Source of the DNA: Giardia intestinalis
Taxonomy: Eukaryota
Length of the DNA: 64,000 nucleotides
Strand: one strand, 5' to 3'
Assembly: GCA_000002435.2 (NCBI GenBank)
Contig: CM018793.1
Shown: positions 5,781 to 54,827 of the stretch, in pieces
Layout: every line of letters begins with the position of its first letter
Position numbering within the stretch: position 1 is the stretch's first letter
Made by a program: the position numbers and the translations under genes
The notes under the pieces: generated by a model
What the model was told of the DNA's origin: nothing
Databases searched by the model: none
The model's input: only the letters and a program-made list of their open reading frames with translations

Positions 5781-7817
5781 ATGCGGATCCGGAGGCTGCT
5801 GCAGGTGAGAGGGTCGGGTATCAGGTCGCCGCGGAAAATGGAAAGTGAATGTAAAAAATTACACATGGAGCCTCAAAGATTGTCCTTAGAGACATGGATT
5901 TTTCAGTTAGAGCAAGGGTATGATGAAGATCTTGCTAGTGTAGCACCAGAATATGTCAAGGCCAAAGGAGCTTCCGGGGAATCTAGCTTTTTACTCGCCT
6001 CTAACATGCGCGCATTTCGAGCTTTGAAATGCCTTCTTACTGCTCCACAGACTGCTCTATCACAAGATGAGCTAGAAACTATTCTCCGTACTACTATTTT
6101 CGAGGTGAATAATCGACTTGCCTTCAATTGTCTTCGTATTGTACTTGAGATAATAACTAACCAGGCTGAAGAACATGGAATCACTCTTCACTCGCATACT
6201 AGCGTACTGCAGGCACTCAAGATGGCAGAGACGCATGGGAACTATCGGGCGATGTTCTACCTTGCTTCCATTTTGGATGATGCACCTGCACTACTTCGAT
6301 ATTCCTATCTGTTCACAAAAGACCCACTGAGCTTACCAGTTCTTAAAAACTATGACTCAAAAGCCCAGTCTGTAGAGAAGGCTGAGGATCATCTCAACAA
6401 TTCTAAGTATCTCGCTAACGTACTTGAAAAGCTAGAACAGCCCGAGGATACTTCTACTGCCTATCAGCTTTCTCTTATTAATAGTGTATTATCGTTTTTG
6501 CAATCTATAATTGCGTGTCAGCAACCTTCTACCATATTCCCCAGAGTTGAAGAAGCCATTCATCAGCTACTGCAACGTGATTTGCCCGACACCCTAGGAA
6601 GAACCATCTTCTCTATAGTCTTATATTGCATACAAAGCCTGCATAAACGAGATAATATAGATAATAGTCAAATCACCACTACTAGCAACATCATGGATCC
6701 CCATATTTCCGTTGATACATTGCTTCAGTCTGACTCATTAAAAGATCAGCCATTCTCATGCACTGAGTCCTTCATCAATAAGAGAAGAGATGACAAGGGC
6801 ATCTTGTCTTACATAAAGACCCTTAACACTAAAATCTATACACATGAAGCAGAAATTCTACAATTACGGAAACAACTGGAGACGGTTAGATATAGACACC
6901 GGGAAGAGGCCGAGATCAATGGAAAGTTAAATACAGCCCTTTCTGAACAGTTAAAAGAGGAGATAGACAGGGCCATGATGCTGGAAAAGCAATCGTTGGA
7001 GAAAGATAAGGTGATTTTATCTATGCGTGAACTCTTAAAAGGCTGGATGAGGAACTTAAATACAGTACAGAGTAATGCAGATAGTAAAGCTAGTTGTGAA
7101 CTACTTCAAGATGGCAAGAATCTGTTGGGATACAATAGTGATGAGTTATTCGGCACCGGTACTAGTTTGAAGGAAAGTGCTGTGTTAGCAGAGAAGTACA
7201 TTGACTCTATGACGAGTAATCTTGCAGGTATTAACGATTCGCTGAAGAAACTTGACAATGAGAAGCAGTCCCTCTCTATGATGCAGAAGCACGTTCTTGG
7301 TCTGGAATATGAACAGGAGCAAATACTGAACAATAGAGATGACCTTAATACAGAGCTACTTGAAGCGGAGCTACGACACTATAGAAGGCTCTATTTCAGT
7401 CTAAAGGCACACTATGAAGCGATGGTAAACCTTTTACCAGGGGACGCAGCTGAATTGGCGAGCGATGTCCTAAATAACTTAATATTAGAAGGTAATGAAA
7501 GACATCTGGAATATTCTAGAGGTAGCAAAGACACTAGTGTTGAGCCGAGCGATGAACTAGGAGCATCTGGTCAATTATTTATGGATTGCAACTCTGCATG
7601 GAACGAACAAAACTCCACGTGGCGTAGATACATGAGTGATGGCGAATACCAACGCTATGTTGAACGTGCCGTGACTCCAACGGGCCTGTCCACAATCTTC
7701 CGGCATCAGACTGCGCCCGGCCCAGATTCTAAATCTGCCCAAATCCGGCCTTGGAGTGCAGTACTGCGTGGAGAGAACAAGGAAAGGAATAAAAGCGCTT
7801 CCAAAAGCTTCCACTGA
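5781..7817 (+). CDS. Hypothetical coiled-coil protein (678 aa as given). The start is uncertain and in-frame ATGs at 5838 and 5865 are better-placed candidates
   Basis: It is a long uninterrupted ORF with heptad-rich, E/K/Q/L-rich central and C-terminal regions. The ATG at 5865 sits in the AT-rich context 'gtaaaaaattacacATG' typical of diplomonad initiators. I recognise no enzymatic motif. Confidence 0.6.
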   Translation: MRIRRLLQVRGSGIRSPRKMESECKKLHMEPQRLSLETWIFQLEQGYDEDLASVAPEYVKAKGASGESSFLLASNMRAFRALKCLLTAPQTALSQDELETILRTTIFEVNNRLAFNCLRIVLEIITNQAEEHGITLHSHTSVLQALKMAETHGNYRAMFYLASILDDAPALLRYSYLFTKDPLSLPVLKNYDSKAQSVEKAEDHLNNSKYLANVLEKLEQPEDTSTAYQLSLINSVLSFLQSIIACQQPSTIFPRVEEAIHQLLQRDLPDTLGRTIFSIVLYCIQSLHKRDNIDNSQITTTSNIMDPHISVDTLLQSDSLKDQPFSCTESFINKRRDDKGILSYIKTLNTKIYTHEAEILQLRKQLETVRYRHREEAEINGKLNTALSEQLKEEIDRAMMLEKQSLEKDKVILSMRELLKGWMRNLNTVQSNADSKASCELLQDGKNLLGYNSDELFGTGTSLKESAVLAEKYIDSMTSNLAGINDSLKKLDNEKQSLSMMQKHVLGLEYEQEQILNNRDDLNTELLEAELRHYRRLYFSLKAHYEAMVNLLPGDAAELASDVLNNLILEGNERHLEYSRGSKDTSVEPSDELGASGQLFMDCNSAWNEQNSTWRRYMSDGEYQRYVERAVTPTGLSTIFRHQTAPGPDSKSAQIRPWSAVLRGENKERNKSASKSFH

Positions 7818-7853
7818 TTGAGTGGTACGTCTTCGAGTAGATTTTTTAAAGCC

Positions 7854-8909
7854 ATGAACTGTGAGGGCTGTGGTACTGGGACACCGATGATTAGGCACTC
7901 CATGACCCTTAAGCGCCTCTGCAGGAAGTGCTTTCTCCGTGCAATCGAAGATGAAGTTCAGCGAACGGTGGAGATGCACAGCCTGGTCCGTCCGGGCGAG
8001 AGCATCGCTCTTGGAGTGAGCGGAGGAAAAGACTCGAGTGTTATGCTTCATATTCTACACACCCTGCGGCTTCGTTGTCAGGATGTCTACGATGGTGTTC
8101 GCTTTGTTATGGTTGCAGTCAACGAAGGAATCCAAGGCTATCGCGGCGAGTCGCTAGCGTGTCTTCAGCGCCTCCATAAAAAGTATCCGTATGAGCTGGA
8201 GATAGTGGGCTTTGAAGAGCGATACGGACGTACGCTAGACCAACTTGTCAACACTGTGAACGGAAATTCATGCACTGATACATTTGCCCCACTTAAGGCC
8301 GATCTGGAGGACGTTAACGACACGGGCCGGCCACAGCCAACGGCGAAGACAGCAACTGCCTGCTCGTTCTGTGGTATCCTCCGACGAAATTCTCTTTCTT
8401 ACGGGAGTCTCCAGACACAATGTACAAAGGTGGCTACCGGGCACAATGCTGACGACAATGCCGAGACCGTTCTACTGAACTTAATCAGAGGTGACGCTGC
8501 AAAGCTAGTAAGGTGCAGCGAGCCATTATCTGACTTGAATCAAGGGGTGGCACGCATAAAGCCCCTCTGCAATATAGCACAGCGAGACATTGTCATATAC
8601 GCCCACCTACAACGCCTGGACTACTTTAGTGTGGAGTGTCCTTATGCAACAACGGCACTACGCGGTAAGCCAAGAAGCTTCCTAACCAACCTTTGTACCA
8701 GACCAGCGTACAGCGACGCGGCTCTTCGTATAATTCGGTCAACTCGGAAGCTGCGCCTTAAGACCACACATGAGACCCAGAAGCTCACTAGTCTTCATCT
8801 GTGCCCCTCGTGTCAGAGTCCTGTCTCCACAACTCGCTGCCAGTGCTGTGACATACGCACGGCAAAGACTGGGGACGACCTTAAGCGAGCCGCCAAGTGC
8901 AGGCCATAA
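7854..8909 (+). CDS. CTU1: Cytoplasmic tRNA 2-thiolation protein 1 (Ctu1/Ncs6/ATPBD3 family PP-loop ATPase)
   Basis: It has an N-terminal CxxC...CxxC zinc finger and the PP-loop SGGKDS. Blocks [29 protein letters not shown] and [18 protein letters not shown] align with human CTU1 blocks [29 protein letters not shown] and LYAHFRRLDYFSEECVYA. A C-terminal CPSC...CQCC finger is present. The ORF track begins at a TTG at 7818, and the first ATG is at 7854. Confidence 0.85.
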   Translation: [351 protein letters not shown]

Positions 8910-9039
8910 TCTAATCAGGGCGTCTAATTTACATTCGATTCACAATTGTTAACAGCTTACTCAAATGTTTACTATGGTTAGTATGATTAATATACTTAGT
9001 CTACGATCTTATGAATCAAGTAAACGCCGTCTTGTAAAA

Positions 9040-9061
9040 CGTACACCTGCAATAAAATAAA
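9040..9061 (+). promoter_or_regulatory. AT-rich initiator region directly upstream of the ATG at 9062 (diplomonad-type core promoter)
   Basis: The sequence 'aataaaataaaATG' abuts the start codon. Giardia promoters are short A/T-rich elements within about 50 bp of the ATG. Similar A-rich contexts lie upstream of 14875, 37682, 49907 and 62681. Confidence 0.4.
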
Positions 9062-10645
9062 ATGATCAATTTAAAGGACAAAGCAGAGCAACTGATAAAC
9101 GACTGGCTGGACCTGGACTTCTGGCCGGCCACTAGGGCCAAAGCACTGGAGATGCTCGCTAATGAGTCGTATGCCCAAATACAAAAAGACTTCGATCCAC
9201 GAAACAGGCTTGAGATACAATCTCATGGCCTTCAGGGGGATTATGGGCCCGGCTTCAATAAGCTTAACGAGCTTGTGATTGCTCAGACGGCGCAGTCAAT
9301 CTATTACTATTGTCTAAGAGTTATTGGAGAAACAGAACTCAAAATACACGGTATTGGAATAGGTTATGATTGGTCTCCACATGCCAAGGACTTTGCCAAG
9401 GTAAGCGCTGCGGTGTTCTTACTGTACGGGGTGCGGGTCTATATGGTCAGCGAGCCGGTATCCGCGTCATATGCTGAACACCTGAACAAGCATTACATGT
9501 GTGGGTGCGGATTTATGGCCACGGAAACACACATCTCGCGCACAGAGTGCCGGTATATTATCTACGGAATTGGCTATGGCTCTGCTCTTTCTGCGCCGCA
9601 CAGCACAAATGTGAGCGAAATGATTTCAGCAAGCAATAGCCACATTTTTGTCCCTCATCCGGGGCTCAAGTCACTTGACAAAGTTCTGGAAAAGGGGATC
9701 GAAACACGCCTTCTTGTAATGGTTGACCAGGAGCATGAGGTGTCAAAGGTCTATCATAAAAAGCTCAGGCTTCTGAAATATTTCGATCGAGAATATCGCG
9801 AAAAGACTAAGCGGAGCTTCCGGATAGGGTGTTTCCTAATAGGATTGTACGATATCTGCAAGGTGACCAATATTCTTCAGAATCTATTTCAGTTTTCGAC
9901 GGATGCAATACAGTCTCGTTTCGTCTTTCTTGAGAGTGTTCAATCTAATGCTGTGCCCCCAGAACAGTGCATTGCTACCGCTTGCAAACAAGCTAATATA
10001 ATCAATTCCCGTGCAGAAGCCGACCGGGTACCTCCAATTAAGATTATCATATCTATAGATATTAACGCAGAGGCGATTTGTTTAGCAGAACTGATTGATT
10101 CCCCTTCATCCTCTGCACATTGCCAACCACAGTGGCACATCTATCGCAAGGAAGATATCAACACCTTTGCCATGAATTGGTGTGTAGAAAACCTCAATGG
10201 AAATCCCACGGTTCTGGCACGTCTGAAGAAGCACAGACTTACCTATGGATGCAGCACATATCCACCTAGTCACTCTATACAGACTGACAGTCCGAAACTC
10301 ATAGCAGCTCAATGCAGTGGTGCAGCTTGCAAGAGTGACTCTAGCAATAGCAGACACCCATGGGGCCTTTCCAGAGAAGAAGAGGAGGAGACTGAATGCG
10401 GCGCGGTGTGTGGGCGGTACCAAGGATTCCAGAACACAGCTGAGGAAATTATCACAGCAAGAGACGGAGCAATAACATTCGGCGTTCTCGCAGAGCTACT
10501 AATAGATCTGTATGAATTTTCTGGAACTGGAATTAACATTAGGAGGCCAGCTAACGAGCAACGCAGCTCCAATACGTTTGGTGGATATCTTAGCAGCTTT
10601 ACCCAGGGTATCACGCCACAAGCATGCCAAGTTGAAAGCGTTTAG
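9062..10645 (+). CDS. Phosphoglucomutase-2/phosphopentomutase (PGM2) family protein with substituted catalytic motifs, a probable pseudo-phosphomutase
   Basis: The N-terminus aligns block by block with PGM2. 'RLEIQSHGLQGDYGPGFNKLNELVIAQTAQS' matches '[31 protein letters not shown]', and 'GIGIGYD...VRVYMV' matches 'GIVISFDAR...IPVYLF'. The phosphoserine loop TASHNP is replaced by TETHIS, and the metal-binding DPDADR by DINAEA. Confidence 0.55.
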   Translation: MINLKDKAEQLINDWLDLDFWPATRAKALEMLANESYAQIQKDFDPRNRLEIQSHGLQGDYGPGFNKLNELVIAQTAQSIYYYCLRVIGETELKIHGIGIGYDWSPHAKDFAKVSAAVFLLYGVRVYMVSEPVSASYAEHLNKHYMCGCGFMATETHISRTECRYIIYGIGYGSALSAPHSTNVSEMISASNSHIFVPHPGLKSLDKVLEKGIETRLLVMVDQEHEVSKVYHKKLRLLKYFDREYREKTKRSFRIGCFLIGLYDICKVTNILQNLFQFSTDAIQSRFVFLESVQSNAVPPEQCIATACKQANIINSRAEADRVPPIKIIISIDINAEAICLAELIDSPSSSAHCQPQWHIYRKEDINTFAMNWCVENLNGNPTVLARLKKHRLTYGCSTYPPSHSIQTDSPKLIAAQCSGAACKSDSSNSRHPWGLSREEEEETECGAVCGRYQGFQNTAEEIITARDGAITFGVLAELLIDLYEFSGTGINIRRPANEQRSSNTFGGYLSSFTQGITPQACQVESV

Positions 10646-14507: not shown

Positions 14508-14813
14508 CTACTTCCGTTTTTTAGTGTAATCAATTTTGCTATTATAACAATCCAAACAATGATAGCTATCTCCTGAAAGCAAGGAGCAAAGCATGCACAC
14601 TCTTCGAGAACAAACAGCGCAAATTTCTGAACAACTAGTGCAATGAATCATACTGCAAGACGGGCAAGCCTTTTTAGATTGAGCAGATTCACCACAGACT
14701 CGGCAGCGCCAAACAAATAGCGCCTCGTCAGTACGCATTAGTGAGTCGTCAAATTCACTGGAGTTACGGCACATTTCTGCGATAAGACCGTCTGCTCCAG
14801 ACCTGCGCCTCAT
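14508..14813 (-). CDS. Small CxxC-rich putative zinc-binding protein (101 aa)
   Basis: Six CxxC pairs (CRVC, CPSC, CTSC, CAVC, CMLC, CLDC) sit within 60 residues. The ORF shares a 61-bp AT-rich divergent region with the kinesin gene at 14875. It could also be an upstream ORF of the 13001 gene. Confidence 0.35.
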   Translation of the reverse strand: MRRRSGADGLIAEMCRNSSEFDDSLMRTDEALFVWRCRVCGESAQSKKACPSCSMIHCTSCSEICAVCSRRVCMLCSLLSGDSYHCLDCYNSKIDYTKKRK

Positions 14814-14874
14814 TTCAATCTCACTATTTCGTTTTTTGAAGAGGCAAAAACTACAGTGAAATTTTGAAGCTTCG

Positions 14875-16794
14875 ATGACTTCTCCATTAACAACTGAGGA
14901 GCTCCAGGCATCCCAGCTACAGGGCAGTCAGAGTGTGTCCAACCGTATCCGTGTTATAGCAAGAGTTCGACCCTTTCTCCCTGGAGAAGTAGTACCAAAC
15001 CCGGCATGCATCACGGCATCAAACAACGTAATTACGGCCCGTGATCCCACCAACTCAATGGTAGTCACATCTCATCCATTTGATATTGCGCTGGGGCCGT
15101 CTTCCACCCAAGATAACGCTTATGAAACCATATCTAATGACATCTATCGCGTGATGTGTGGCGTTCCTATGCTTCTTTTGGCATATGGAGTCACATCTGC
15201 AGGAAAGACATACACTCTTTTTGGAGAAGGAAAGGACACGGGCCTCTATGGGCGGGCAGTCAACGATTTGTATCGGCTCATTGACATCTCAGCCATTGCT
15301 AAGTCTGCACTGGTGAGCATTTCAGTGGTACAAATATATATGAATAACGTCATGGATCTGCTGAATAAAGGAGAGCCTCTCAAACTCCACGGCGCAGGGA
15401 CGGATCCTCTTCCCGGAAGAAAATGGATAGATGTCGATTCTGCAGCCAGCTGCTTGTCTCTGACTCGACGTGCCTTACAAAACAGGGAGATGTCATCTAC
15501 AGCACTGAACACAATGTCTTCGAGATCACACTGTATCGTTTTCCTTCGAATTTTAGATACTGCCACGGGCCAGGCATCAGGGCTGACAGTCGTCGACTTA
15601 GCTGGTAGTGAACCACACATGCCCGGGGCATCTAAACAGGTTCAGCAGGAATCCAGCTTCATCCGTACGTCGTTGCTAATGCTCGATCGGGCTATGAAGG
15701 ACCTGAAGAGCCTCAACTGCACACGGACGACCTCTGTGAGTTTCCGCTCTTCTCCTCTCACTATGGCTCTGCGTCCATATCTGCAGCCTGCAAGCGATTT
15801 CTCCCTTCCGTGCAACGCAGTTATCTTTCTCAATCTTCACGGAAAGGTAGATGGGTTTTTCAGTAACAAAGAGACACTCCAACTCGGTCTCGTCGCCAAG
15901 TCGGTTAAGAATTATTCTAAAACAGCTTCTCGCCTCGGCGTGCTTAGCACAACGGCGGCGTCCATGGCTGGGTCCATGGGCAAGTCCCTTTCGCGTTCTT
16001 CTCGCGCTCGCCCCACCGATATTGCTATAGAGGATGGGGGCAGTCTTCCTAGTCCAGAAATTACTGGCACTATTTATGCTACAGCAGATACAAACATTAC
16101 GCTATCTCAATGCAGTAGTGCACAGGACATTACTCGCTTCCCTAATTGTCCTACTTCTCTTGTGATTCAAGGAGACAGCATACTTATACCAATCACGTAC
16201 TGGAACAGCATTCTAACAGAGTTTGAAAACCTGGCGACTGCATTGGCCAATGCAAGCGGGGATATTCAGGAGGAGCTTCAAAATGCCCGCCAAGAGGCAG
16301 TCGCCGAAATGGCACAGCTCATGGAACTCAACATTGCGAAGGAACGTGAAACTCTGTTAACCGATATCGTTGAAAGGGACGCAACTATTAACAGCCTTCA
16401 GCAAGAACTTGTCATAGTGATGGCAAACAATGATACACTATCAAAGCAGCTATATGTCACTAAGACAAAGCTTAACAGTTTTCAGGCGACAGTTGATTCA
16501 CAGCAGAGCAGTCAACGCGGCACATCGAAATTTGGCGATCCTGTATTCAGCACATCTATCGATAATAATCTATTAGATCAACTAAGATCGTACAGGGAGG
16601 AGAACTATCAACTTAAGCAGCGCCTATCAGAACTAGAGAGCCAGTACAGACGCTCCGTCTCTCAGTTGGACTACATCAAAGCAGAGCTGCAGCGTGCATC
16701 CACCGATAGCACGAGGCTGTCCATACCCTCTAACTTAATGGGGCTTCCAGACACAATGACCAGTACTCCTCGAGATCTCTCTAAGAGCGAGTAA
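14875..16794 (+). CDS. Kinesin-like motor protein with an N-terminal motor and a C-terminal coiled-coil
   Basis: The kinesin motifs appear in order. These are IRVIARVRPF (beta1), the P-loop GVTSAGKTYTL, switch I NTMSSRSHCIVFL and switch II VVDLAGSEP. The C-terminal half is coiled-coil (QELVIVMANNDTLSKQLYVTKTKLN...). Confidence 0.8.
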   Translation: MTSPLTTEELQASQLQGSQSVSNRIRVIARVRPFLPGEVVPNPACITASNNVITARDPTNSMVVTSHPFDIALGPSSTQDNAYETISNDIYRVMCGVPMLLLAYGVTSAGKTYTLFGEGKDTGLYGRAVNDLYRLIDISAIAKSALVSISVVQIYMNNVMDLLNKGEPLKLHGAGTDPLPGRKWIDVDSAASCLSLTRRALQNREMSSTALNTMSSRSHCIVFLRILDTATGQASGLTVVDLAGSEPHMPGASKQVQQESSFIRTSLLMLDRAMKDLKSLNCTRTTSVSFRSSPLTMALRPYLQPASDFSLPCNAVIFLNLHGKVDGFFSNKETLQLGLVAKSVKNYSKTASRLGVLSTTAASMAGSMGKSLSRSSRARPTDIAIEDGGSLPSPEITGTIYATADTNITLSQCSSAQDITRFPNCPTSLVIQGDSILIPITYWNSILTEFENLATALANASGDIQEELQNARQEAVAEMAQLMELNIAKERETLLTDIVERDATINSLQQELVIVMANNDTLSKQLYVTKTKLNSFQATVDSQQSSQRGTSKFGDPVFSTSIDNNLLDQLRSYREENYQLKQRLSELESQYRRSVSQLDYIKAELQRASTDSTRLSIPSNLMGLPDTMTSTPRDLSKSE

Positions 16795-45741: not shown

Positions 45742-47968
45742 TTTAAGATGATTATAGAATGATCCGGGAACCCCTCCTGCAACGAAAGCTTAGCCATCCT
45801 ATTTATCCAGGGGGCATTAGAAATCAAGAGATACATTTAACTGATCATTGCGTGTATTGAACAACTCATACTAATTTCTTTGTCCCCAGTAGCTGACCCT
45901 AATCATCCCAGTAGAGCCCCACATCAGGTATGGATCTTGCGTAGTGCTGAGCCATATCCCCTATGTCAATAGATGCTGCTTCGGTGGCTCCAATTTGAAG
46001 GAGGGAGGCCCTTGTCACTGTATAGATTTGTGTCAAGTGAAAATTATCGTGGGCTTCTTGGAAGACCCGACGGCTCGCTATATTCTGCCATCTCTATGCT
46101 TGCCATGGCTACTGGAAATACCGATGCATGTGTGCAACTCATAAGAGTGAGCTCTGCTTGATTATTTGCTCAAACTGTCCAACCCATGATAATAGGACTG
46201 CTACCAGAGGAGACCATGAACGAAACCCTAGTACTCACGAGGGCACTCTCAGATGAAGTGGTTTGTATGCGCTCTTTAGCCCTCGGAAGCTCAGTGCACA
46301 TGGTTACTCATCCTTTGACACCAGACTCGCCCACAAGACGCACTGGCCACACTATAACACCCTTGGTGGTGAGCCCAGATAAGGGTGCGTGCGCTGATAG
46401 TATTGTATGTCAAAAGACCTTCCTAGTAGCAATGTGCTGGTCACGGTCAAGAAGACATTACCATTTTGATGCATCGAGGGTTGATCGATTCGTTAAGACA
46501 CTGTCGGTATTCTACTCGTATAATCGGGACCCATCTCATCTACAAAGGTTCTACTTGTGTGCACGCTCACCCGGAAACCAGAATCGAGACCTGGCAGGCG
46601 TCACTCGCCCTGCAGCGATTTGGTACGACAGCAAGGGTGGACCTCGGATTGACGGGGGATGCTTCCCGGCGAGTCCCAGGTGCACTGCAGGTGGCGATCT
46701 CAACGTGGATGAGTGCCCAGTCGGTGAAGTCATGGCTCACAGGGAGGCGCCTGGACTACCCACAAGGATTGGGGAGATCCAAGACTGCAGTGTCCGTTGG
46801 TAAGACACACAGTAGGAACGCCTTGTGAGATAGACCAGAAGTCCTCCGCCCAGTCGTGGCTAGTACCTGCAGCTAGTAGCCCCGTGGGCTCGTCCCGGAC
46901 GCTCTTGGTCAAACGGATAGCCGATGCGGTCGTGTCAGAGGTCAGTCTCCGCCTCCACATGGCAGAACAGTGGGAACAGTCGTCTATAGGCAGGGACCTT
47001 CTCTTGAACATAATGCAGCTAACACTGTGCCACAGTACCCATGACTGACTTGGTGGGCTACACTATGGCAATACTTCGCAGAGCCCCAGTTCGCAAGTCA
47101 TAAGGCGATTGCCAATTCAGACCGAGACATCCTTTGTGTACGCTGGGCCTATCTGCAGTATAACGAGCAGCGTATCTGTTTGACCAAGAGGCTGCCGGCG
47201 TGGATATGCACTGCCGTATGCCCAGGCCTATAGTTGAATGACAGACCGTTCAGGTGGGGGATCAGCGATTGCCTTGACGTGCAAGAAGAGCCTCCATGCG
47301 ACATCGTTCCACAACGGTATGCGTAGGATCTGCGGCGAATGGCACCACCACCAAAGCGGACGAGGCGCTGTGCTATCGAGAAAGGAGGCTCATATCTTCT
47401 TATGACCAAAGAGCCTAGCAACAACATTTACACAGCAATGCATACTATCGCAATGGACTTTCCTTGTGGGCAGTGTTAAAATGTTCATGTGCCATGTCGT
47501 GAGGCCATGGCGTATTTTGCATCTCCTGCGCCAACGTCATCGCTGCCTATTAGTGCAGAACCTGGCTATCTTGGAAGGCCTCCTCAAGTTCGTCTATGCC
47601 TTTCTCGAAGAAGGTCCTTGGTAGTGGAGCTCGCTTTATGAGTGCTGTCTACCTCCTAGCAGAGCAAATTGACGGATGATGCACATGCGGGCTATACACT
47701 TTTCCGAAGCTTGTAGGACACGGTGTTATGGCGGCTTTAACGGTACACAAGCCACGCCCGCCTGCAACAGATGGCCTCGATAGGATGCTCTTGAGTAGGG
47801 CACCAGTCAACTAGTCTAGTCCATGGGCACCGCTGAAAAGCACCAGTGTCTTCTTGTTCTACACTGCGGTGTGCTCACAGCGATACGCTGAAGGATGCGT
47901 GCGGCCCGGTGGAGGCGGCCTCTACTGCTATCTGATTGCCCGTTAGTGTGAGCGTGATTCGACGGGCA

Positions 47969-49246
47969 ATGTTGTACTTGGCAGGTTTAGCATTCGCTTA
48001 CTTGGCGCTTGCCGATCCAAAATCGTGCACCAACTCTCAAAATTGTGCATCTGGAGATAACTGTCTAGATGTCAATATGAATGGTTCTCCTACAGAGGTT
48101 TGCACAAAATGCGAGCCAAACAACGTCCCGATCGACGGGGCGTGCAAGCCGGCCGCAGACAACACGAACAGCTGCGTAACCTCGGATAGCGGGGCCGGCG
48201 GGGTTTGCGCGTCGTGCCAGGGGAGCACCTACCTCTACAAGGGCGGGTGCTACGCCGCGTGCCCTCAGGGAACACCAAACTCTGAGACTAACACATGCGA
48301 TGGAGTCCCCGCCCCTGATTGCAATCTCGCCAACTGCGAGGTGTGCTCGGAGGACAAGCAGAAGTGCACAAAGTGCCAAAGTAACTACTTCCTCACTCCA
48401 GAGAAGAACGCTTGCTTGGCGTCTTGTCCGGCCGGGTCGTACGCGGTTGGGCAAACGTGCGCGCCCTGCGACCCCTCCTGTGCGGAGTGCAGCGGGGCCG
48501 GCGCTTCCAAGTGCACGGCCTGTCCCGCCGGGAAGATGCTGAGGTACGCCGACGAGAGCAAGCTTAATGAGGGCGGCCAGTGCGTGGAGCAATGCGTGGA
48601 GGGCCCGGAGTGCGAGACGTGCGGCCTAACAATTGGAGGTACCAAGTACTGCTCGAAGTGCAAGGGGAACAACGTGCCGCTCAATGGCGTCTGCACAAGC
48701 AATGCGGCCAGGACTCGGTTCTGCACCACTGTCGCTAACGGTGCTTGCACGGTCTGCGCCGCCGGATACTTCATCCAGGAGGGCGGATGCTACAAGACTG
48801 ACAGGCTCCCCGGGAAAAGCATCTGCACAACGCCCACTGGGGATGGAAAATGCCAAACGTGTGCGAATGGCTTGACAGCTGTCTCGAACATGTGTCCATT
48901 ATGCGACTCCACTTGTGCGACATGCACCGTGGCCAATCAACCCGATAAGTGCAGCACGTGTCCACCTGGCCGTTACTTGGACGCCAGTAAAGCATGCAAA
49001 CTGTGTACAGAGACAAGCGGTAGCATCCAGGGCGTCGCTAACTGCGCGAGCTGCGCTCCTCCAACTGGTAATAGTGGTTCTGTCATCTGCTACGTCAAGA
49101 CGGATGGCACTGACAACGGCGGAAGCACGAATAAGAGCGGCCTCAGCACAGGCGCTATAGCGGGCATCTCCGTCACGGCGGTTGTCGTCGTGGCTGGCCT
49201 TGTGAGCTTCCTCTGCTGGTGGTTCCTCTGTAGGGGCAAGGCGTGA
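47969..49246 (+). CDS. VSP: Variant-specific surface protein (VSP)
   Basis: The signal peptide is MLYLAGLAFAYLALA. There are about 28 CxxC motifs and the GGCY motif. There is a single C-terminal TM (AIAGISVTAVVVVAGLVSFLCWWFL) followed by the invariant cytoplasmic tail CRGKA and a stop. The ORF track starts at a TTG at 47936, and the first ATG is at 47969. Confidence 0.95.
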   Translation: MLYLAGLAFAYLALADPKSCTNSQNCASGDNCLDVNMNGSPTEVCTKCEPNNVPIDGACKPAADNTNSCVTSDSGAGGVCASCQGSTYLYKGGCYAACPQGTPNSETNTCDGVPAPDCNLANCEVCSEDKQKCTKCQSNYFLTPEKNACLASCPAGSYAVGQTCAPCDPSCAECSGAGASKCTACPAGKMLRYADESKLNEGGQCVEQCVEGPECETCGLTIGGTKYCSKCKGNNVPLNGVCTSNAARTRFCTTVANGACTVCAAGYFIQEGGCYKTDRLPGKSICTTPTGDGKCQTCANGLTAVSNMCPLCDSTCATCTVANQPDKCSTCPPGRYLDASKACKLCTETSGSIQGVANCASCAPPTGNSGSVICYVKTDGTDNGGSTNKSGLSTGAIAGISVTAVVVVAGLVSFLCWWFLCRGKA

Positions 49247-49260
49247 CTTAGGTAGTAAAC
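49247..49260 (+). promoter_or_regulatory. VSP extended polyadenylation signal (ACTTAGGT + AGTAAAC)
   Basis: The TGA stop is followed 1 nt later by 'cttaggtagtaaac'. This gives ACTYAGRT AGTRAAY, the conserved 3' element of Giardia VSP genes, and includes the general AGTRAAY poly(A) signal. Confidence 0.8.
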
Positions 49261-49906
49261 GTGCCCACATACCACAGTATACATCATAAATGGTGTCCAG
49301 GGCTGCCTCTGGTACACTGACGTGCCTCCTGGCGAGAGTAGCGGGGTCCCGCTCCCGAGCTACGGGCTGTGCTGGAACTGGGGGCACTATTTGTAGTGGT
49401 TGGAAAGTAAGCCCTGCAGGGCCGACTTTAGTCGTGAAAGCATCGTATACATCAGCAGTGGCTGAACACTCAGATTTTTTGGTATTACGGCAAAGTCATC
49501 AATGCCTGAAAAATCTACGAGGTTACTTCTATCGACATCTATGCTTCTCTATCGTTCCTCCTAGAAAAGAGCACTCTTGAGAATCAGCAAAACCATATTC
49601 TAAACTAATGAGATTGTTTCTTATTCAGCTTAGTTGATGAGCCAGCTTTATAAACCTGAAAGTATAATGTAGTTTGTGAGTAAATACCAATGTTGGGCGT
49701 TTGCATTGTGGATTCTACAAGTTTAGCATTAAGATCACTGCCTTATATATTCTTGCTGTTAAAGATTCTCAATTAAAGCTTTAACATTCTGTCATTGCCG
49801 CCGTCAGTATTCGCGTCTATCTCCATAACGATATCGACGAAGACCTGGCCCACAACATACCATTTGGCAGCTATTGATCATGATCTAAAAATTCAAATCT
49901 CTCTTC

Positions 49907-52276
49907 ATGTCTCTCTCTGATTGGTTCCAAGGGATTATTATGAACGATTTCGATACGGTAAACAAGCTACTGGCTCAGTACAAATGTTCTGTAGACGCGC
50001 AAGGAGATACGGGACTCATGGTAGCTACGCAAGCAGGCCTTTTGGGAATGGTGCGCTTGCTAGCACCCTTTGAGAGCGGATCTCGCTCATCTTCCGGCTG
50101 TACAGCTCTTATGATAGCATGCATGTCGAATATGCCTGAAATAGTCGAGGTACTCCTTCCCCTAGAAAAGGACTTTAGGCTCTCTGATGGTCGGGACGCA
50201 CTAATGCTGGCCGCTAGTAGCAATTCTGGCGATGTACTAGACATACTCATGCCGAACTTCAGTTTATGCCGCGACAATAATAGCCTATCTGCCCTAGACT
50301 ATGCGGGATATGAGGGTCATCTTTTCATAGTCATGAAGCTCGTGCACTACTTTCGCCCATCCTCCGCTGATCTATCAATTGCACGGGACCTAGCATCTGA
50401 AGCAGGTAGAAGCTCTGTGGTTGCTTATCTAGACTCTCTAGACGCCAATAGCAGTTCCAACCCTATCCAGGATGCATCCAGTGGAGGATTTACTAACGAG
50501 TCAGACATATTAGTCGACAAGAAAGATGGTATGGTCGTTACCACTTCGACCAACGGAGAAGACCGCATTTCTCTTCCACATCCAGATGATCCTTTTACTT
50601 CGGATATGACTACCATCAACCCAACTGCAGAGAAGCACATTGCACTTTTGGAATCAGAAAACAAAGCGCTTCGTTTAAAACTGGAGGCCATAACAGCGAG
50701 CACGGACGAAGAGCGATTGCTGGCTTTTAACAAAATGGAAAACGAGATAGCTTTTTATATGGGCGAGGTTGAAATGCTACAGAATAGCCTCAAGGAGAAA
50801 GATTTAGCCGATTCTGCGAGTATTGAATCTGAAAGCATAGAGTCTTTACAACAGCTCCTTATTGGCGCTAAAGAGGAGCTAGATAAAGCAAGGGAAGATC
50901 TCAATACCAGCTTGGAATCACAGAGTGAGTTGACTGGTCTTTTATTGATTAAAGAGGAAGAAGGAAAGAAGCTAGCGACAGAGATAGATTCTCTAAAGCG
51001 TGAATTGAAGGCCTCGAGGGAAGAGCTTGAAAAGACGGAACTAGAGTTACAAAATACTAAGCAACGATTAAGGGTGTGCGAAGGTGAGGCCGCGATAGGA
51101 AAGCAGTTTGATAACACAATGGTCTTGACAAAATCACTCTATGGCCACGACTTGCGTGAGCAGTTGGCGGTACCTTTACGCAATGTAATACCCACAGACA
51201 TAGATCTCCGATTTATCAAAGGCACCGCGGCGCAATTCAAGGCAAATCCATCAGAGTTAAGGCATCTTATATCTAACTTCAACATTCTCAAGAAGGCCTA
51301 CGTTTCTTTGTTGAGAGACTATGATAAGGTAGAACCGTCTCCCCAACGGTCCGCAACAGGGCTTTGTAAAGGGCATGGATCCTTACGCAATAAAAGTGCT
51401 AGGGCAAGGGACTCTATGGATACACTCATCTCGTCCATAAATACTTCCATAAGGCGGTCAAGTTCCAGAACGGCTCCGTTATCGCGGTCATCGTCGTCAC
51501 AAGTTATACAGATGGCATCTACTCAAGGCGCTGATATTGAACGGGCTCAGTCTAGCTTGGCTGATAACCGCCAAAGGAGCATTGTTTCAGGAACACAAAT
51601 AGGAAGATCAGTTACTGCTAGAAATCGAGCCACAGAGGTTTCGTTAGTGACAGAGGAGATGATGGCTGAATTGTCTAATCAGGAGAACACGCCACTCATG
51701 AGGGCGTTTGTAGAGGGAAATCTGGATGGCGTATTAAATATGCTATCACACGTCGGTAAGCAGCGCAGCGATGGAACAACCGCCCTAATGCTCGCGGCCC
51801 TATTTAATCGCATTAGCGCAATCAAGTATGTTGTCAAAAAGGAGGCACGAATGAAGCGTGTTGATGGAGCCACTGCTCTACATATTGCCCTTCAAAAGGG
51901 GTATTATACCATTGCGGATCTTTTAACAAAATATGAAGGAATTGACGTCAGCGAATATAGTACAGAGGGCAACCGAAAAACTGAGCTCATGTGTGCCGCA
52001 GAAGAAAATGACCTGGTGAAGTTGTGGTGTCTGCGCCCGTTACAAGAACGCTTACAAGATCAGAATGGGAAGACAGCCTTAATGTATGCTCTTGAAAAGG
52101 GGCACCTACACTGTGTGTACCTTTTATTATCCAGTGAAGCAAAGATTCGAGATAGTCAAGGAAACAATATAGTGTCTTATTGCTCCAAGATGAGTCATAC
52201 TTTGCCCGAATCTCTTCGCCAAGAACTTACGTTTATGGCAACGCGCTACTGCAATGAGCAGTATTACATGGAGTAG
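49907..52276 (+). CDS. Ankyrin-repeat / coiled-coil / ankyrin-repeat protein (789 aa, 'protein 21.1'-type)
   Basis: There are ankyrin repeats at the N-terminus (QGDTGLMVATQAGLLGMVRLL, SGCTALMIACMSNMPEIVEVLL) and at the C-terminus (DGTTALMLAALFNRISAIKYV, NGKTALMYALEKGHLHCVYLLL). A central coiled-coil of about 200 aa separates them. Confidence 0.8.
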   Translation: MSLSDWFQGIIMNDFDTVNKLLAQYKCSVDAQGDTGLMVATQAGLLGMVRLLAPFESGSRSSSGCTALMIACMSNMPEIVEVLLPLEKDFRLSDGRDALMLAASSNSGDVLDILMPNFSLCRDNNSLSALDYAGYEGHLFIVMKLVHYFRPSSADLSIARDLASEAGRSSVVAYLDSLDANSSSNPIQDASSGGFTNESDILVDKKDGMVVTTSTNGEDRISLPHPDDPFTSDMTTINPTAEKHIALLESENKALRLKLEAITASTDEERLLAFNKMENEIAFYMGEVEMLQNSLKEKDLADSASIESESIESLQQLLIGAKEELDKAREDLNTSLESQSELTGLLLIKEEEGKKLATEIDSLKRELKASREELEKTELELQNTKQRLRVCEGEAAIGKQFDNTMVLTKSLYGHDLREQLAVPLRNVIPTDIDLRFIKGTAAQFKANPSELRHLISNFNILKKAYVSLLRDYDKVEPSPQRSATGLCKGHGSLRNKSARARDSMDTLISSINTSIRRSSSRTAPLSRSSSSQVIQMASTQGADIERAQSSLADNRQRSIVSGTQIGRSVTARNRATEVSLVTEEMMAELSNQENTPLMRAFVEGNLDGVLNMLSHVGKQRSDGTTALMLAALFNRISAIKYVVKKEARMKRVDGATALHIALQKGYYTIADLLTKYEGIDVSEYSTEGNRKTELMCAAEENDLVKLWCLRPLQERLQDQNGKTALMYALEKGHLHCVYLLLSSEAKIRDSQGNNIVSYCSKMSHTLPESLRQELTFMATRYCNEQYYME

Positions 52277-53624
52277 CTTTGCTCATCGCGGCCTTGAGAT
52301 CAAGGACGGCTGACCGTGTGGTAAGTCCTGCATACCGTTTGTACTCATCACTGTTTATGCCGAGAGCCTCTAACCCCGCTATGTGCTGTCTTTCTAAGAA
52401 GTGCTTATCAAATACCTTTTGCCCGTAGTAAAATAACTCTCCACATACTTCGCACAAAAATCGACGATGTAACCCGTGGGCATCGTACTGCCACTTGGGT
52501 ATTTCCTCACCAGTGTTAGGATCATATATCTGTTTCTTAACGGTTATTCTTCCTGCCACGTCACTTACATTGTTTTGCTTAACAACACCCGCCGGTAAAA
52601 GGGATAGAATGGGTACGTATGCATCTCTGCTAACCTGGAGACTAAGCGAAACTGTCAGCTTATAAGATAAGTCAATTAGCTTCTCAGTAAAGTTATTGAT
52701 CCTGTCTTCCTCGTAACACTCTATAAAGGGTTGCGACACGCTTTGTGTGGAGGTATCCCCTAGGGTATTGTAGTTGACCGTCAAAGACATTTCTCTCTTC
52801 AGGAAGTTCAGTAAAAGTAAAGTCTTATGTAAAATAGCAAATGCCTCATAGTGCTCATGATTGGTCTTCTGTGTGCTGTGTCGAACTGCTGCCCTGTGCC
52901 TTCGTCCCATCATGTGTGCCTGCATATCTGCTTCTGTGTGCACTTCGACGTGACACGTACTACAGTAAACCTGCTGCTCTATAAGTGTCTCAACGTACTG
53001 CGCATATTGTTGGTCTAACTTCTGATGCTCATCCAGAGTCAAAACAGTGCCTGTGACGGACTTCCTCATATAGAATAGCTGTGGATACTTTATTTTGTAG
53101 AAATGAAGAAGATGATTGTGCAATAAAGTGATTAGTCGCTTGTTCGTAGTACTCAGTATAATATCATGGATATCAGAAACGAAGTCGGTGTAGCGCAGTG
53201 GATCTTTGGAAGACGTGCTGGCGTTTTTTAACGCAGAGTATTGTTGATAAGCTTTGGATAAATCGATGACTCTATAAAACATTGTTTGAGACGCCCCAAG
53301 CAGGATAACCCGGAGCAGAGCCTTGATCTCTCGTTTCAGAAAAGAGGTAACACTGCTAGTTAGAGGTCCAGGTTCCCCGCTCTGGCTGCCATGGCTCTTC
53401 CAGAACAACCGGCAGTTCTCAGCAAGTGTGTTAGTTCCCTGCTGCGTTATTAATCTGTGCATTGTTTGATACTGCACGTAAGCTATGTGTGCTAGATAGG
53501 CTAGAAGATTTTCCTTTATAAGCTGTTCTTCATACGACTCCGAAGAATCCATCGACACTAGCCCAAAGGCCCGCATTGACGTGCAGTAGACTAGCATTGC
53601 AAAGTGGAACTCTTCTGCCGACAT
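52233..53624 (-). CDS. SF3A3: Splicing factor 3a subunit 3 (SF3a60/Prp9)
   Basis: The matrin/U1-type zinc finger 'YCSTCHVEVHTEADMQAHMMGRRH' is present. The C-terminal C2H2 finger 'FLCEVCGELFYYGQKVFDKHFLERQHIAGLEALGINSDEYKRYAGL' aligns with human SF3A3 '[41 protein letters not shown]'. The 3' end overlaps the convergent ankyrin gene by 44 bp. Confidence 0.65.
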   Translation of the reverse strand: MSAEEFHFAMLVYCTSMRAFGLVSMDSSESYEEQLIKENLLAYLAHIAYVQYQTMHRLITQQGTNTLAENCRLFWKSHGSQSGEPGPLTSSVTSFLKREIKALLRVILLGASQTMFYRVIDLSKAYQQYSALKNASTSSKDPLRYTDFVSDIHDIILSTTNKRLITLLHNHLLHFYKIKYPQLFYMRKSVTGTVLTLDEHQKLDQQYAQYVETLIEQQVYCSTCHVEVHTEADMQAHMMGRRHRAAVRHSTQKTNHEHYEAFAILHKTLLLLNFLKREMSLTVNYNTLGDTSTQSVSQPFIECYEEDRINNFTEKLIDLSYKLTVSLSLQVSRDAYVPILSLLPAGVVKQNNVSDVAGRITVKKQIYDPNTGEEIPKWQYDAHGLHRRFLCEVCGELFYYGQKVFDKHFLERQHIAGLEALGINSDEYKRYAGLTTRSAVLDLKAAMSKATPCNTAHCSSALP

Positions 53625-54827
53625 CTACCTCCTGCTTGGTTTTTGTTTTCATTTATGATAATCGCATATTTACAAATGTCACATATGAATTTGAGTAGTG
53701 CAACTTATAACATATAAGGGGAAAGAGACTTACTGTGGTAATTTTCTCGTCTATGGTAAATTTCAAGAGTTTTGAGATTGTATTTAATAAAGAATAGACA
53801 ACAAGGATGTAGTCAAATGGTGGCCACAGGGAAACTTAGATGCTATGTTGCTGGGCCCACCTGCAGACGTGGTCCAGAGGCCTTATGAGTGATCCTCGCT
53901 CAATTCCTGGCCATGTCTGAAGATGAAGGCTGGTTGTAGATACCATACTAGGGGTTCTTCTCTAGTAGTGCATCCAAAGCCAGGTGCTTTCCCTAGTCAT
54001 TCTGTGCAGCGTCCGCGTCGCTCAGTCTAGGATTCAGCTTACTCATTGGCATATGTAGCTTGTAAGTTGTATCTCTCCTTGGTCTATCCCCCCGATGAGG
54101 GAGGGCCCCAGCAGTCGATGACCCTGGACCGACGCCTCGGTGGACCGACGCATCACCCCAAGTGTGCTGTGCAGATGGACCAGCCCACACATCACTGAGC
54201 CAGACGCACTGCACAGGGTGAGCGTCGACACGGTCTCGTGCTGGATGACGGACCACCTGCAAGAGCGCACTGCGATCCATGAGCAGAGGGCCGGGCCTCT
54301 TCTCCGACACAACGCATGGGAGTACTCCATCGGCATCTACGCACGCGTACCACAACCTCAAGATAGAGGGACACGGGGAGCGCACCCTCCGATCATACTC
54401 GGGACTGATGACTCGCTTCATGAGGAGACGAAGAGGCACCCCGAGGAACGGGGTAGACACCCGGGGTCATAGCGTATCCCATCTTCGTCATGGAGTACCA
54501 GGGTCCCGGGCCACGTGGAGGCCAGATCGCCGCAACAGACGCAAGGCCCTGAATAGCAGGTGCCCACCAGTGCCAGACGATAGTTGACCCCGATGGGCCA
54601 GAGGAAGGGAGGAACCCTAGAGGTAACGTGAGGAGCAGCGGCTTCCGGGGGACGGGGCACAGAGTCTTCTCCTGTCGGGATCGAGGGCACCTGACTCTCG
54701 GATTTCTGATCCCAGCCGTGTATGGGCGAAAGGCTTGCCTAAGGTAGCAGTGGCTTGCACGGGAGATCACTCAGGTAGTAGGTGACAACCCCACCCTGGT
54801 GAAACGAAGAGTAAATTAGGTGTACAT

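What the first reader, a model, noticed from the sequence alone, without database searches (positions are those of the whole stretch)
47969..49260. Solitary VSP antigenic-variation gene embedded among housekeeping genes, with an intact CRGKA tail and extended poly(A) signal
This ORF fixes the taxonomic context as Giardia. It has a signal peptide, dense CxxC/GGCY motifs, one TM and the invariant CRGKA cytoplasmic tail. The VSP-specific 3' element ACTTAGGTAGTAAAC lies immediately after the stop. VSPs are the substrates of Giardia antigenic switching. This one is isolated rather than in a VSP array and is preceded by a 2.2-kb ORF-free region, which is unusual for this genome. It may be a full-length expressible copy.
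Basis: partly seen in the sequence, partly recalled or inferred. Interest (0 to 1): 0.5.

Follow-up and report, generated by a model that had tools for sequence, protein, structure and literature searches.

The report
Known Giardia surface-antigen gene VSP GL50803_16472
This is an intact, already catalogued variant-specific surface protein gene (GL50803_16472, "VSP-52") of Giardia intestinalis WB chromosome 5; both its isolation and its long gene-free upstream region are normal for this family, so the finding is correct but ordinary.

Summary
Window 47969-49246 (+) is an uninterrupted 425-codon ORF. It has a hydrophobic N-terminus, 52 Cys, 16 CXXC, 2 GGCY, one C-terminal TM helix and a CRGKA tail. 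ACTTAGGTAGTAAAC starts on the last base of the TGA stop, and the VSP initiator CAATGTT spans the ATG. Pfam VSP scores E=6e-104.

The protein is 100% identical to XP_001708090.1 / KAE8305218.1, which is GL50803_0016472 on chromosome 5 of G. intestinalis WB. It is listed as VSP-52 in Adam 2010 and classified as a complete VSP in a 2022 preprint. It is therefore already known.

- Many VSPs stand alone.
- Published VSP intergenic distances have a median of 1280 nt and a mean of 2131 nt, against 79 and 392 nt genome-wide, and they are GC-rich.

The 2.2-kb upstream stretch is not literally ORF-free. It holds a 205-aa orphan ORF, which carries a stop in A2 isolates and is decayed in P15.

One added result. 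Assemblage A2 (DH) has a VSP in the same slot, but it is only 38% identical. The WB gene is a mosaic: most of it is about 97% identical to the DH VSP at a different locus (next to Maf1), with a 150-bp slot-type patch. This fits segmental gene conversion. Expression status could not be determined.

The parts
47969..49246 (+). Complete CDS of VSP GL50803_0016472 (425 aa plus TGA)
   Evidence: No internal stop. Pfam VSP E=6e-104. 100% identical to XP_001708090.1 / KAE8305218.1. The nucleotide and protein sequences are given for GL50803_0016472 in published supplementary tables.
47967..47973 (+). VSP initiator / Kozak-like element CAATGTT spanning the start codon
   Evidence: Seen directly in the sequence. 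Adam 2010 defines PyAatgTT, and its supplement lists CAATGTT for gene 16472.
47969..48013 (+). Signal peptide coding region (MLYLAGLAFAYLALA)
   Evidence: The N-terminus is hydrophobic. The same 15 residues are listed as the predicted signal peptide of the paralogue GL50803_00137721. The gene passed the published signal-peptide requirement for VSP classification. No signal-peptide predictor was run here.
49154..49228 (+). Transmembrane helix (aa 396-420, AIAGISVTAVVVVAGLVSFLCWWFL)
   Evidence: Kyte-Doolittle 19-aa windows score 1.8-2.5 only in this segment.
49229..49243 (+). CRGKA cytoplasmic tail
   Evidence: According to Adam 2010, the Cys is palmitoylated and the Arg is citrullinated in VSPs.
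49246..49260 (+). VSP extended polyadenylation signal ACTTAGGTAGTAAAC, starting on the last base of TGA
   Evidence: Published consensus is ACTTAGGTAGT[AG]AA[CT]GC, 0-15 bp after the stop. The motif instance for this gene is listed in a published table.
47360..47968 (+). Roughly 600-bp non-coding upstream element that travels with this VSP subfamily
   Evidence: It is 94% identical to the DNA upstream of the DH Maf1-locus VSP and 68% identical to the upstream of a P15 paralogue. Short-read contigs of several isolates end at 47418-47440, and at the equivalent place in the Maf1 locus.
45742..47359 (.). Locus-specific gene-free upstream DNA, orthologous in A2 and partly in E
   Evidence: WB versus DH identity is 76-99% per 100 bp. 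WB versus P15 is alignable only to about 46576, at about 77%. No Rfam match, tandem repeat or tRNA-like feature was found.
46186..46803 (+). Orphan 205-aa ORF inside the upstream region, probably not a functional gene
   Evidence: It has an in-frame stop in three A2-type assemblies and several stops and indels in P15. Substitutions are spread evenly over codon positions. It has no Pfam hit. Against 1.84 billion representatives it finds only itself plus spurious repeat proteins. It is longer than shuffled sequence gives (2 of 1000 shuffles).
48100..48249 (+). Patch of 'slot-type' sequence inside the CDS
   Evidence: It is 92-98% identical to the DH VSP at the same chromosomal slot, and only 62-88% identical to the DH Maf1-locus VSP that matches the rest of the gene.

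Best explanation
The feature is GL50803_0016472 (VSP-52 of Adam 2010). [quoted passage not shown]

Shown here: the gene encodes a type I membrane protein. It has a cleavable signal peptide, a Cys-rich (CXXC) ectodomain, one TM helix and a five-residue CRGKA cytoplasmic tail. It also carries the family's two cis signatures, the CAATGTT initiator over the ATG and the extended polyadenylation signal on the stop codon.

Inferred from the family's known biology and not tested here: it is one of the roughly 130-230 alternative coat genes, of which a trophozoite displays one at a time. It would be silent in most cells and available for switching. Its tail Cys would be palmitoylated and its tail Arg citrullinated.

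Its GC-rich, gene-free upstream region and its solitary position are typical of the family.

Comparison with assemblage A2 indicates that its present sequence arose by segmental gene conversion or recombination among a small chromosome-5 subfamily (16472, 137721, 50116). The exchange points lie in a shared roughly 600-bp upstream element and in the conserved 3' TM/CRGKA/poly(A) block.
For: - Anatomy.
- Family assignment: Pfam PF03302 E=6e-104; 596 homologues, essentially all named Giardia VSPs.
- Identity: 100% to XP_001708090.1 / KAE8305218.1 / A8BBX7 on the 4.02-Mb contig.
- Published row for VSP-52: gene 16472, chromosome 5, CAATGTT, 425 aa, 52 Cys, 12.2%, 16 CXXC, with no array or pair flag. 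This matches the numbers computed here exactly.
- Published tables give this sequence under GL50803_0016472, classified as VSP, together with its poly(A) motif.
- Family norms for long GC-rich intergenic regions. This gene has a 2,227-bp gap, with 52.7% GC over the 2000 bp upstream against 47.9% for the window.
- Mosaic: WB and DH are orthologous up to about 47499 and again from about 49250. WB 47500-48099 and 48250-49099 are mostly 88-100% identical to the DH Maf1-locus VSP. WB 48100-48249 is 92-98% identical to the DH same-slot VSP.
Against: - Nothing contradicts the identification.
- Expression, surface display and switching of this particular gene were not found in any text or supplement searched, so 'expressible' remains an inference from intact signals.
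- The direction and number of conversion events cannot be resolved without an outgroup and without the WB DNA of the Maf1 and 50116 loci, which could not be retrieved.
Confidence: 0.97

Rival explanations
1. It is an intact-looking but permanently silent or decaying copy, in effect a pseudogene or a recombination reservoir, rather than an expressible coat gene.
For: Adam 2010 proposes that many vsp genes, the downstream members of arrays, are non-expressed cassettes. No expression record for 16472 was found. The same slot in assemblage B holds a degenerate VSP with a GTG start that ends ...FLCR* with no poly(A) motif.
Against: All features used to separate VSP genes from pVSP pseudogenes are present: first-ATG start with Inr, signal peptide, TM, CRGKA and ePAS. 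The 2022 classification places it among complete VSPs. The Inr is characteristic of genes that are not downstream array members.
Confidence: 0.08
2. It is a non-variant Cys-rich membrane protein (HCMP/CRMP) that only resembles a VSP.
For: HCMPs share CXXC motifs, a signal peptide and a TM. One hit in the homologue list is named 'High cysteine membrane protein'.
Against: It has zero CXC motifs, whereas HCMPs have frequent CXC. The tail is exactly CRGKA and the ePAS is present, and both are diagnostic of VSPs.
Confidence: 0.01
3. The mosaic relationship with A2 is an assembly artefact in WB or DH (collapse or chimera of near-identical VSP repeats), not biology.
For: VSP loci are notoriously misassembled. 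All short-read contigs break at 47418-47440. The WB chromosome itself could not be fetched for cross-checking.
Against: The same 425-aa protein appears in both the 2007 (XP_001708090.1) and the 2020 long-read (KAE8305218.1) WB annotations. The DH slot allele is reproduced base-for-base in pattern by an independent ENA assembly, L007. The DH Maf1-locus allele sits inside a 435-kb contig.
Confidence: 0.04

Closest known systems
GL50803_0016472 / XP_001708090.1 / KAE8305218.1 (VSP-52 of Adam et al. 2010), G. intestinalis WB C6 chromosome 5
   Same: It is identical: 100% over 425 aa, with the same Cys and CXXC counts, Inr type, chromosome and poly(A) motif.
   Different: Nothing differs. The window is this locus.
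GL50803_00137721 (VSP-24; XP_001709440.2 / KAE8304991.1), WB chromosome 5. It is inferred to lie next to Maf1 from consecutive GenBank protein accessions (KAE8304991 and KAE8304992).
   Same: It has the same signal peptide and first 28 residues, the same Inr and a collinear C-terminal 380 aa at 76% identity.
   Different: It is 583 aa long, with three tandem repeats in the N-terminal third. It sits at a different locus.
DH (assemblage A2) VSP ESU39795.1 at the MutS-Tfb4-Mob1-Maf1 | VSP | ABC locus
   Same: It is about 97% identical at the DNA level over most of the CDS. The 600-bp upstream element is 94% identical and the ePAS is identical.
   Different: It lies at another chromosomal position. 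It carries a tandem duplication where WB has the slot-type patch, and it has a different juxtamembrane segment.
DH (A2) VSP of 362 aa (P0039) in the orthologous Dis3/118-aa | VSP | Ank789 slot
   Same: It has the same position and orientation. The flanks are orthologous at 95-99%. It shares a 150-bp patch at 92-98% identity and the same downstream DNA.
   Different: It is only 38% identical overall. It has a TAATGTT Inr, a TAA stop and an ePAS with one mismatch. Its 3' half resembles WB GL50803_0050116.
Prototype VSPs such as TSA417 (GL50803_113797) and VSP1267 (GL50803_112208)
   Same: The architecture, tail, Inr and ePAS are the same.
   Different: Those are longer (596-713 aa). VSP1267 sits in an identical inverted pair. 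Both have experimental evidence of surface expression, which 16472 lacks.

Membership tests
Giardia variant-specific surface protein (VSP) | Sequence match to the family profile (Pfam PF03302) | tested here: met
   E=6.4e-104, 348 bits against a 31.4-bit cutoff.
Giardia variant-specific surface protein (VSP) | C-terminal CRGKA tail immediately followed by a stop, preceded by a single TM helix | tested here: met
   aa 396-420 are hydrophobic, aa 421-425 are CRGKA, then TGA. This is the only such ORF in the window.
Giardia variant-specific surface protein (VSP) | About 11-13% Cys, mostly as CXXC, with few or no CXC | tested here: met
   12.2% Cys, 16 CXXC, 0 CXC.
Giardia variant-specific surface protein (VSP) | N-terminal signal peptide of 14-17 aa | tested here: inconclusive
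   The 15-aa N-terminus MLYLAGLAFAYLALA is hydrophobic. The identical peptide is the published predicted signal peptide of the paralogue 137721, and the gene passed the published signal-peptide filter. No signal-peptide predictor was available here.
Giardia variant-specific surface protein (VSP) | Extended polyadenylation signal ACTTAGGTAGT[AG]AA[CT] 0-15 bp from the stop | tested here: met
   It lies at 49246-49260, overlapping the stop, and is unique in the window. The definition comes from PMC3091692.
Giardia variant-specific surface protein (VSP) | PyAatgTT initiator at the start codon (present in 41% of genes, so not obligatory) | tested here: met
   CAATGTT at 47967-47973. Criterion.
Giardia variant-specific surface protein (VSP) | GGCY motif (present in 83% of VSPs) | tested here: met
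   Two copies, at aa 92 and 272.
Giardia variant-specific surface protein (VSP) | Mutually exclusive surface expression and switching | not testable with these tools
   No transcript, small-RNA or proteomic record for 16472 was found in the papers and supplements searched.
High-cysteine / Cys-rich membrane proteins (HCMP/CRMP) | Frequent CXC motifs and a cytoplasmic tail other than CRGKA | tested here: not met
   0 CXC and an exact CRGKA tail. Criteria.

The most novel reading that the evidence does not exclude
The Dis3 | Ank789 interval is a positionally conserved 'VSP slot'. It is occupied in A1 and A2 and by a degenerate copy in B, and a contig break marks it in E. The occupant is rewritten by cassette-like gene conversion from paralogues elsewhere on chromosome 5. 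A shared roughly 600-bp upstream element and the invariant 3' TM-CRGKA-poly(A) block would serve as the two homology arms. If this is general, these conserved VSP ends would act both as expression or membrane-anchoring signals and as the recombination substrate that diversifies the repertoire between sub-assemblages.
Probability: 0.45. Interest if true: 0.3.

Novelty: already known. Interest (0 to 1): 0.1.

Why it matters
As a discovery it does not matter. The gene, its motifs, its solitary position and the long GC-rich upstream region are all in the published Giardia WB annotation and VSP surveys.

Its practical value is that it fixes the window as G. intestinalis WB chromosome 5.

The one modestly useful by-product is a clean, base-resolved example of VSP diversification between sub-assemblages A1 and A2. 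The chromosomal slot and the flanks (95-99% identical) are the same, but the coding cassette has been swapped in segments with breakpoints in conserved family elements. This illustrates the recombination proposed in the literature, and it could be tested genome-wide with long-read assemblies.

Tried and rejected
1. Function in the 2.2-kb upstream region.
- Rfam at E<=1 gave no match.
- There are no tandem repeats and no meaningful direct or inverted repeats.
- tblastn with 123 VSPs and neighbouring P15 proteins gave only weak hits, best E about 1e-3 for a VSP and 6e-5 for a 33-aa stretch of a P15 orphan ORF. These were not accepted as a relic.

2. The 205-aa ORF as a real gene: rejected.
- It carries a stop in A2 and is decayed in P15.
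- It shows no codon-position bias.
- The four weak hits in the 1.84-billion representative search are repetitive bacterial or other proteins and are spurious.

3. Expression or silencing status of 16472. Full-text search for its identifiers found nothing. Searches of the main text of one paper and of the supplements of three papers also found nothing. The single '16472' hit was a numeric coincidence.

4. Fetching the WB chromosome around this gene, around 137721 and around Dis3. The exact-protein look-ups returned no record or only short-read contigs.

5. Synteny of the closest sequence relatives in DH and P15 (L001, L002, L003). None is at the Dis3 slot, so 'closest sequence equals positional orthologue' was rejected.

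6. Structure prediction and fold search were not run. They would add nothing to an unambiguous family assignment.

Full report
**Observation**

Window 47969-49246 on the + strand is a 1,278-nt ORF with no internal stop. Its ATG is the first after an in-frame upstream stop and lies inside CAATGTT (47967-47973).

The 425-aa product has these features:
- a hydrophobic 15-residue N-terminus (MLYLAGLAFAYLALA);
- 52 Cys (12.2%), 16 CXXC, 0 CXC and two GGCY;
- one hydrophobic segment at aa 396-420;
- the tail CRGKA followed by TGA.

ACTTAGGTAGTAAAC begins on the A of TGA (49246-49260). It is the only match to ACTYAGRTAGTRAAY in 64 kb on either strand. Shuffles give 0.12 matches even with one mismatch allowed. 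No other CRGKA-terminated or strongly Cys-rich ORF exists in the window.

**Identity**

Pfam VSP (PF03302) matches at E=6.4e-104. A search of 5.8 billion proteins returns 596 hits, essentially all Giardia VSPs. The top hit is 100% identical over all 425 residues. That hit is XP_001708090.1 / KAE8305218.1 / UniProt A8BBX7, annotated as VSP in G. intestinalis ATCC 50803 (WB C6) on a 4.02-Mb contig.

The supplementary table of Adam et al. 2010 (PMC2996952) has one row that fits every number computed here: VSP-52, gene GL50803_16472, clade II, chromosome 5, complete, Inr CAATGTT, 425 aa, 52 Cys, 12.2%, 16 CXXC. It carries no linear-array or pair flag.

The supplements of a 2022 preprint (10.1101/2022.03.07.483299) give this exact nucleotide and protein sequence under GL50803_0016472 / XP_001708090.1 / NC_051860.1. 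They classify it as VSP and list its poly(A) motif GACTTAGGTAGTAAACGTGC. The gene is therefore already known and catalogued. The upstream neighbour is the annotated 'Mitotic control protein dis3', XP_001708091.1.

**Are the 'unusual' aspects unusual?**

Solitary position:
- Adam 2010 states that many vsp genes exist independently with no other vsp nearby.
- 148 complete genes are not downstream array members, and 72% of these carry the Inr.

Long upstream gap:
- The preprint reports VSP intergenic distances of median 1280 and mean 2131 nt, against 79 and 392 nt genome-wide.
- It reports 53.9% GC in the 2 kb upstream of VSPs.
- Here the gap to the conserved 118-aa ORF is 2,227 bp. The 2 kb upstream is 52.7% GC, against 47.9% for the window (profile).

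Both features are family norms.

Neighbours: Dis3/RNB, a kinase, a DEAD-box helicase, SF3a60 and several ankyrin-repeat proteins. The P15 genome paper names the Protein 21.1 family, along with VSPs, among those associated with synteny breaks.

**What is in the upstream 2.2 kb**

It is not literally ORF-free. It holds eight ORFs of at least 60 aa, the longest 205 aa at 46186-46803.

Evidence on the 205-aa ORF:
- It is longer than mononucleotide shuffles give (2 of 1000).
- It has no Pfam hit.
- It carries an in-frame stop in DH and in two other A2-type assemblies, and several stops and indels in P15.
- Its substitutions fall evenly on the three codon positions, 7/10/13 and 54/49/52.
- Against 1.84 billion cluster representatives it finds only itself, plus four repetitive and clearly spurious proteins.

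I read it as non-coding, or at most a decaying orphan.

No Rfam family (E<=1), tandem repeat or meaningful inverted repeat is present. tblastn with 123 VSPs gives only weak piled-up hits at 46627-46794.

The region has two parts:
- 45742 to about 47359 is locus-specific DNA. It is orthologous in A2 at 76-99% per 100 bp, more diverged than the flanking genes at 97.5-100% per 200 bp (mostly 99-100%). In P15 it is alignable only to about 46576, at about 77%.
- 47360-47968 is an element shared with VSP paralogues at other loci. It is 94% identical to the upstream of the DH Maf1-locus VSP and 68% identical to a P15 paralogue.

Short-read assemblies of WB-type and A2-type isolates all terminate at 47418-47440. 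Contigs from the Maf1 locus terminate 504-629 bp before that VSP's ATG. This is what a repeat boundary produces.

**Comparison across assemblages**

The closest sequence relatives in DH and P15 lie in other genomic contexts. I therefore followed the neighbour Dis3 instead.

DH (A2): the order 1258-aa gene, Ank789, VSP, 118-aa ORF, Dis3 is conserved, and the VSP has the same orientation. That VSP (362 aa) is only 38% identical to the WB protein.

A three-way DNA alignment in 50-bp windows shows:
- WB equals the DH slot at 96-100% up to 47499.
- WB 47500-48099 follows the DH Maf1-locus gene at 80-100%.
- WB 48100-48249 follows the DH slot gene at 92-98%.
- WB 48250-49099 again follows the Maf1-locus gene, mostly at 94-100%.
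- From about 49250 WB equals the DH slot again at 90-100%.

The 3' junction lies within or just after the poly(A) element. The sequence downstream of ...GTAGTAAACG is slot-type in WB.

In WB the VSP next to Maf1 is inferred to be GL50803_137721, from consecutive accessions KAE8304991 and KAE8304992. It shares the signal peptide and a collinear C-terminal 380 aa at 76% identity. The 3' half of the DH slot gene resembles a third WB chromosome-5 gene, GL50803_0050116.

The simplest reading is segmental gene conversion or recombination within this three-member subfamily since A1 and A2 diverged. The direction is unresolved.

This is in line with published statements:
- vsp genes recombine;
- AI and AII repertoires evolved largely independently;
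- VSPs are rarely syntenic, although a few are positionally conserved.

It is an illustration rather than a new principle.

GS (B): the DNA next to the 117-aa ORF and Dis3 holds a degenerate VSP. It has a GTG start, ends ...FLCR* and has no poly(A) motif. It is in the opposite orientation, and the Ank803-SF3a60 block is inverted relative to WB, with another VSP at its far end.

P15 (E): the contig ends 1.1 kb beyond the last alignable base.

**Mechanism**

Shown: an intact type I membrane protein gene with all VSP cis and protein hallmarks.

Inferred from the family's biology as summarised in PMC2996952 and the 2022 preprint:
- the protein is targeted to the trophozoite surface as one of many mutually exclusive coats;
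- the tail Cys is palmitoylated and the tail Arg is citrullinated;
- the CAATGTT and extended poly(A) elements contribute to family-specific expression control.

Whether this gene is ever the expressed one is unknown. No record was found.

**Verdict**

The finding is correct, and its interpretation is essentially right. It describes a known annotated gene whose 'unusual' context is typical of the family. Novelty is 'already known' and interest is low. The A1/A2 mosaic at a conserved slot is the only element that might merit a small follow-up.

Noticed in passing
window 47500-49262 versus L006 (DH contig AHGT01000060.1) and L001/L011 (DH contig AHGT01000001.1): The orthologous slot in assemblage A2 holds a VSP only 38% identical to the WB gene. 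The WB gene is a mosaic of the A2 Maf1-locus VSP (about 97% identical) with a 150-bp slot-type patch. The junctions lie in the shared upstream element and in the poly(A) motif.
   Followed up: yes
L008 (GS, AHHH01000005.1) 1-9941 versus window 45742-53656: In assemblage B the VSP beside the 117-aa ORF and Dis3 is degenerate: it has a GTG start, ends FLCR* and has no ePAS. It is oppositely oriented. The Ank803-SF3a60 block is inverted relative to WB, with a second VSP at its other end. This suggests an inversion between inverted VSP copies.
   Followed up: partly
window 46186-46803 (+): An orphan 205-aa ORF is longer than chance in shuffles (2 of 1000). It is interrupted in A2 isolates, decayed in P15 and has no homologues. 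The representative library holds a 195-aa entry 100% identical to its residues 11-205.
   Followed up: yes
window 47418-47440; L013-L018 ends: Short-read assemblies of many isolates all break about 530 bp upstream of the VSP ATG. They break at the equivalent point of the Maf1-locus VSP too. This marks the edge of a roughly 600-bp repeated VSP upstream element.
   Followed up: partly
window 46627-46794 (+): Weak tblastn hits from many VSPs pile up on a GGCF...C..C-containing stretch at the local GC peak. This may be a very old Cys-rich relic or it may be chance.
   Followed up: partly
window 14511-14927 (-): A small Cys-rich ORF (about 100 aa from its first Met, 7 CXXC) looks like a zinc-finger protein. 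It lies between two divergently oriented larger ORFs.
   Followed up: no
window 36-370: This stretch is about 68% similar to DNA lying 300-640 bp downstream of the DH Maf1-locus VSP (L001 11803-12140). It hints at another VSP-flank-like sequence at the left edge of the window.
   Followed up: no
L002 (P15 contig ACVC01000700.1) 2170-7582: The closest P15 relative (72% identical) shares about 950 bp of upstream similarity with the WB gene. It lies next to a reverse-transcriptase gene, consistent with published links between VSP flanks and retrotransposon relics.
   Followed up: no
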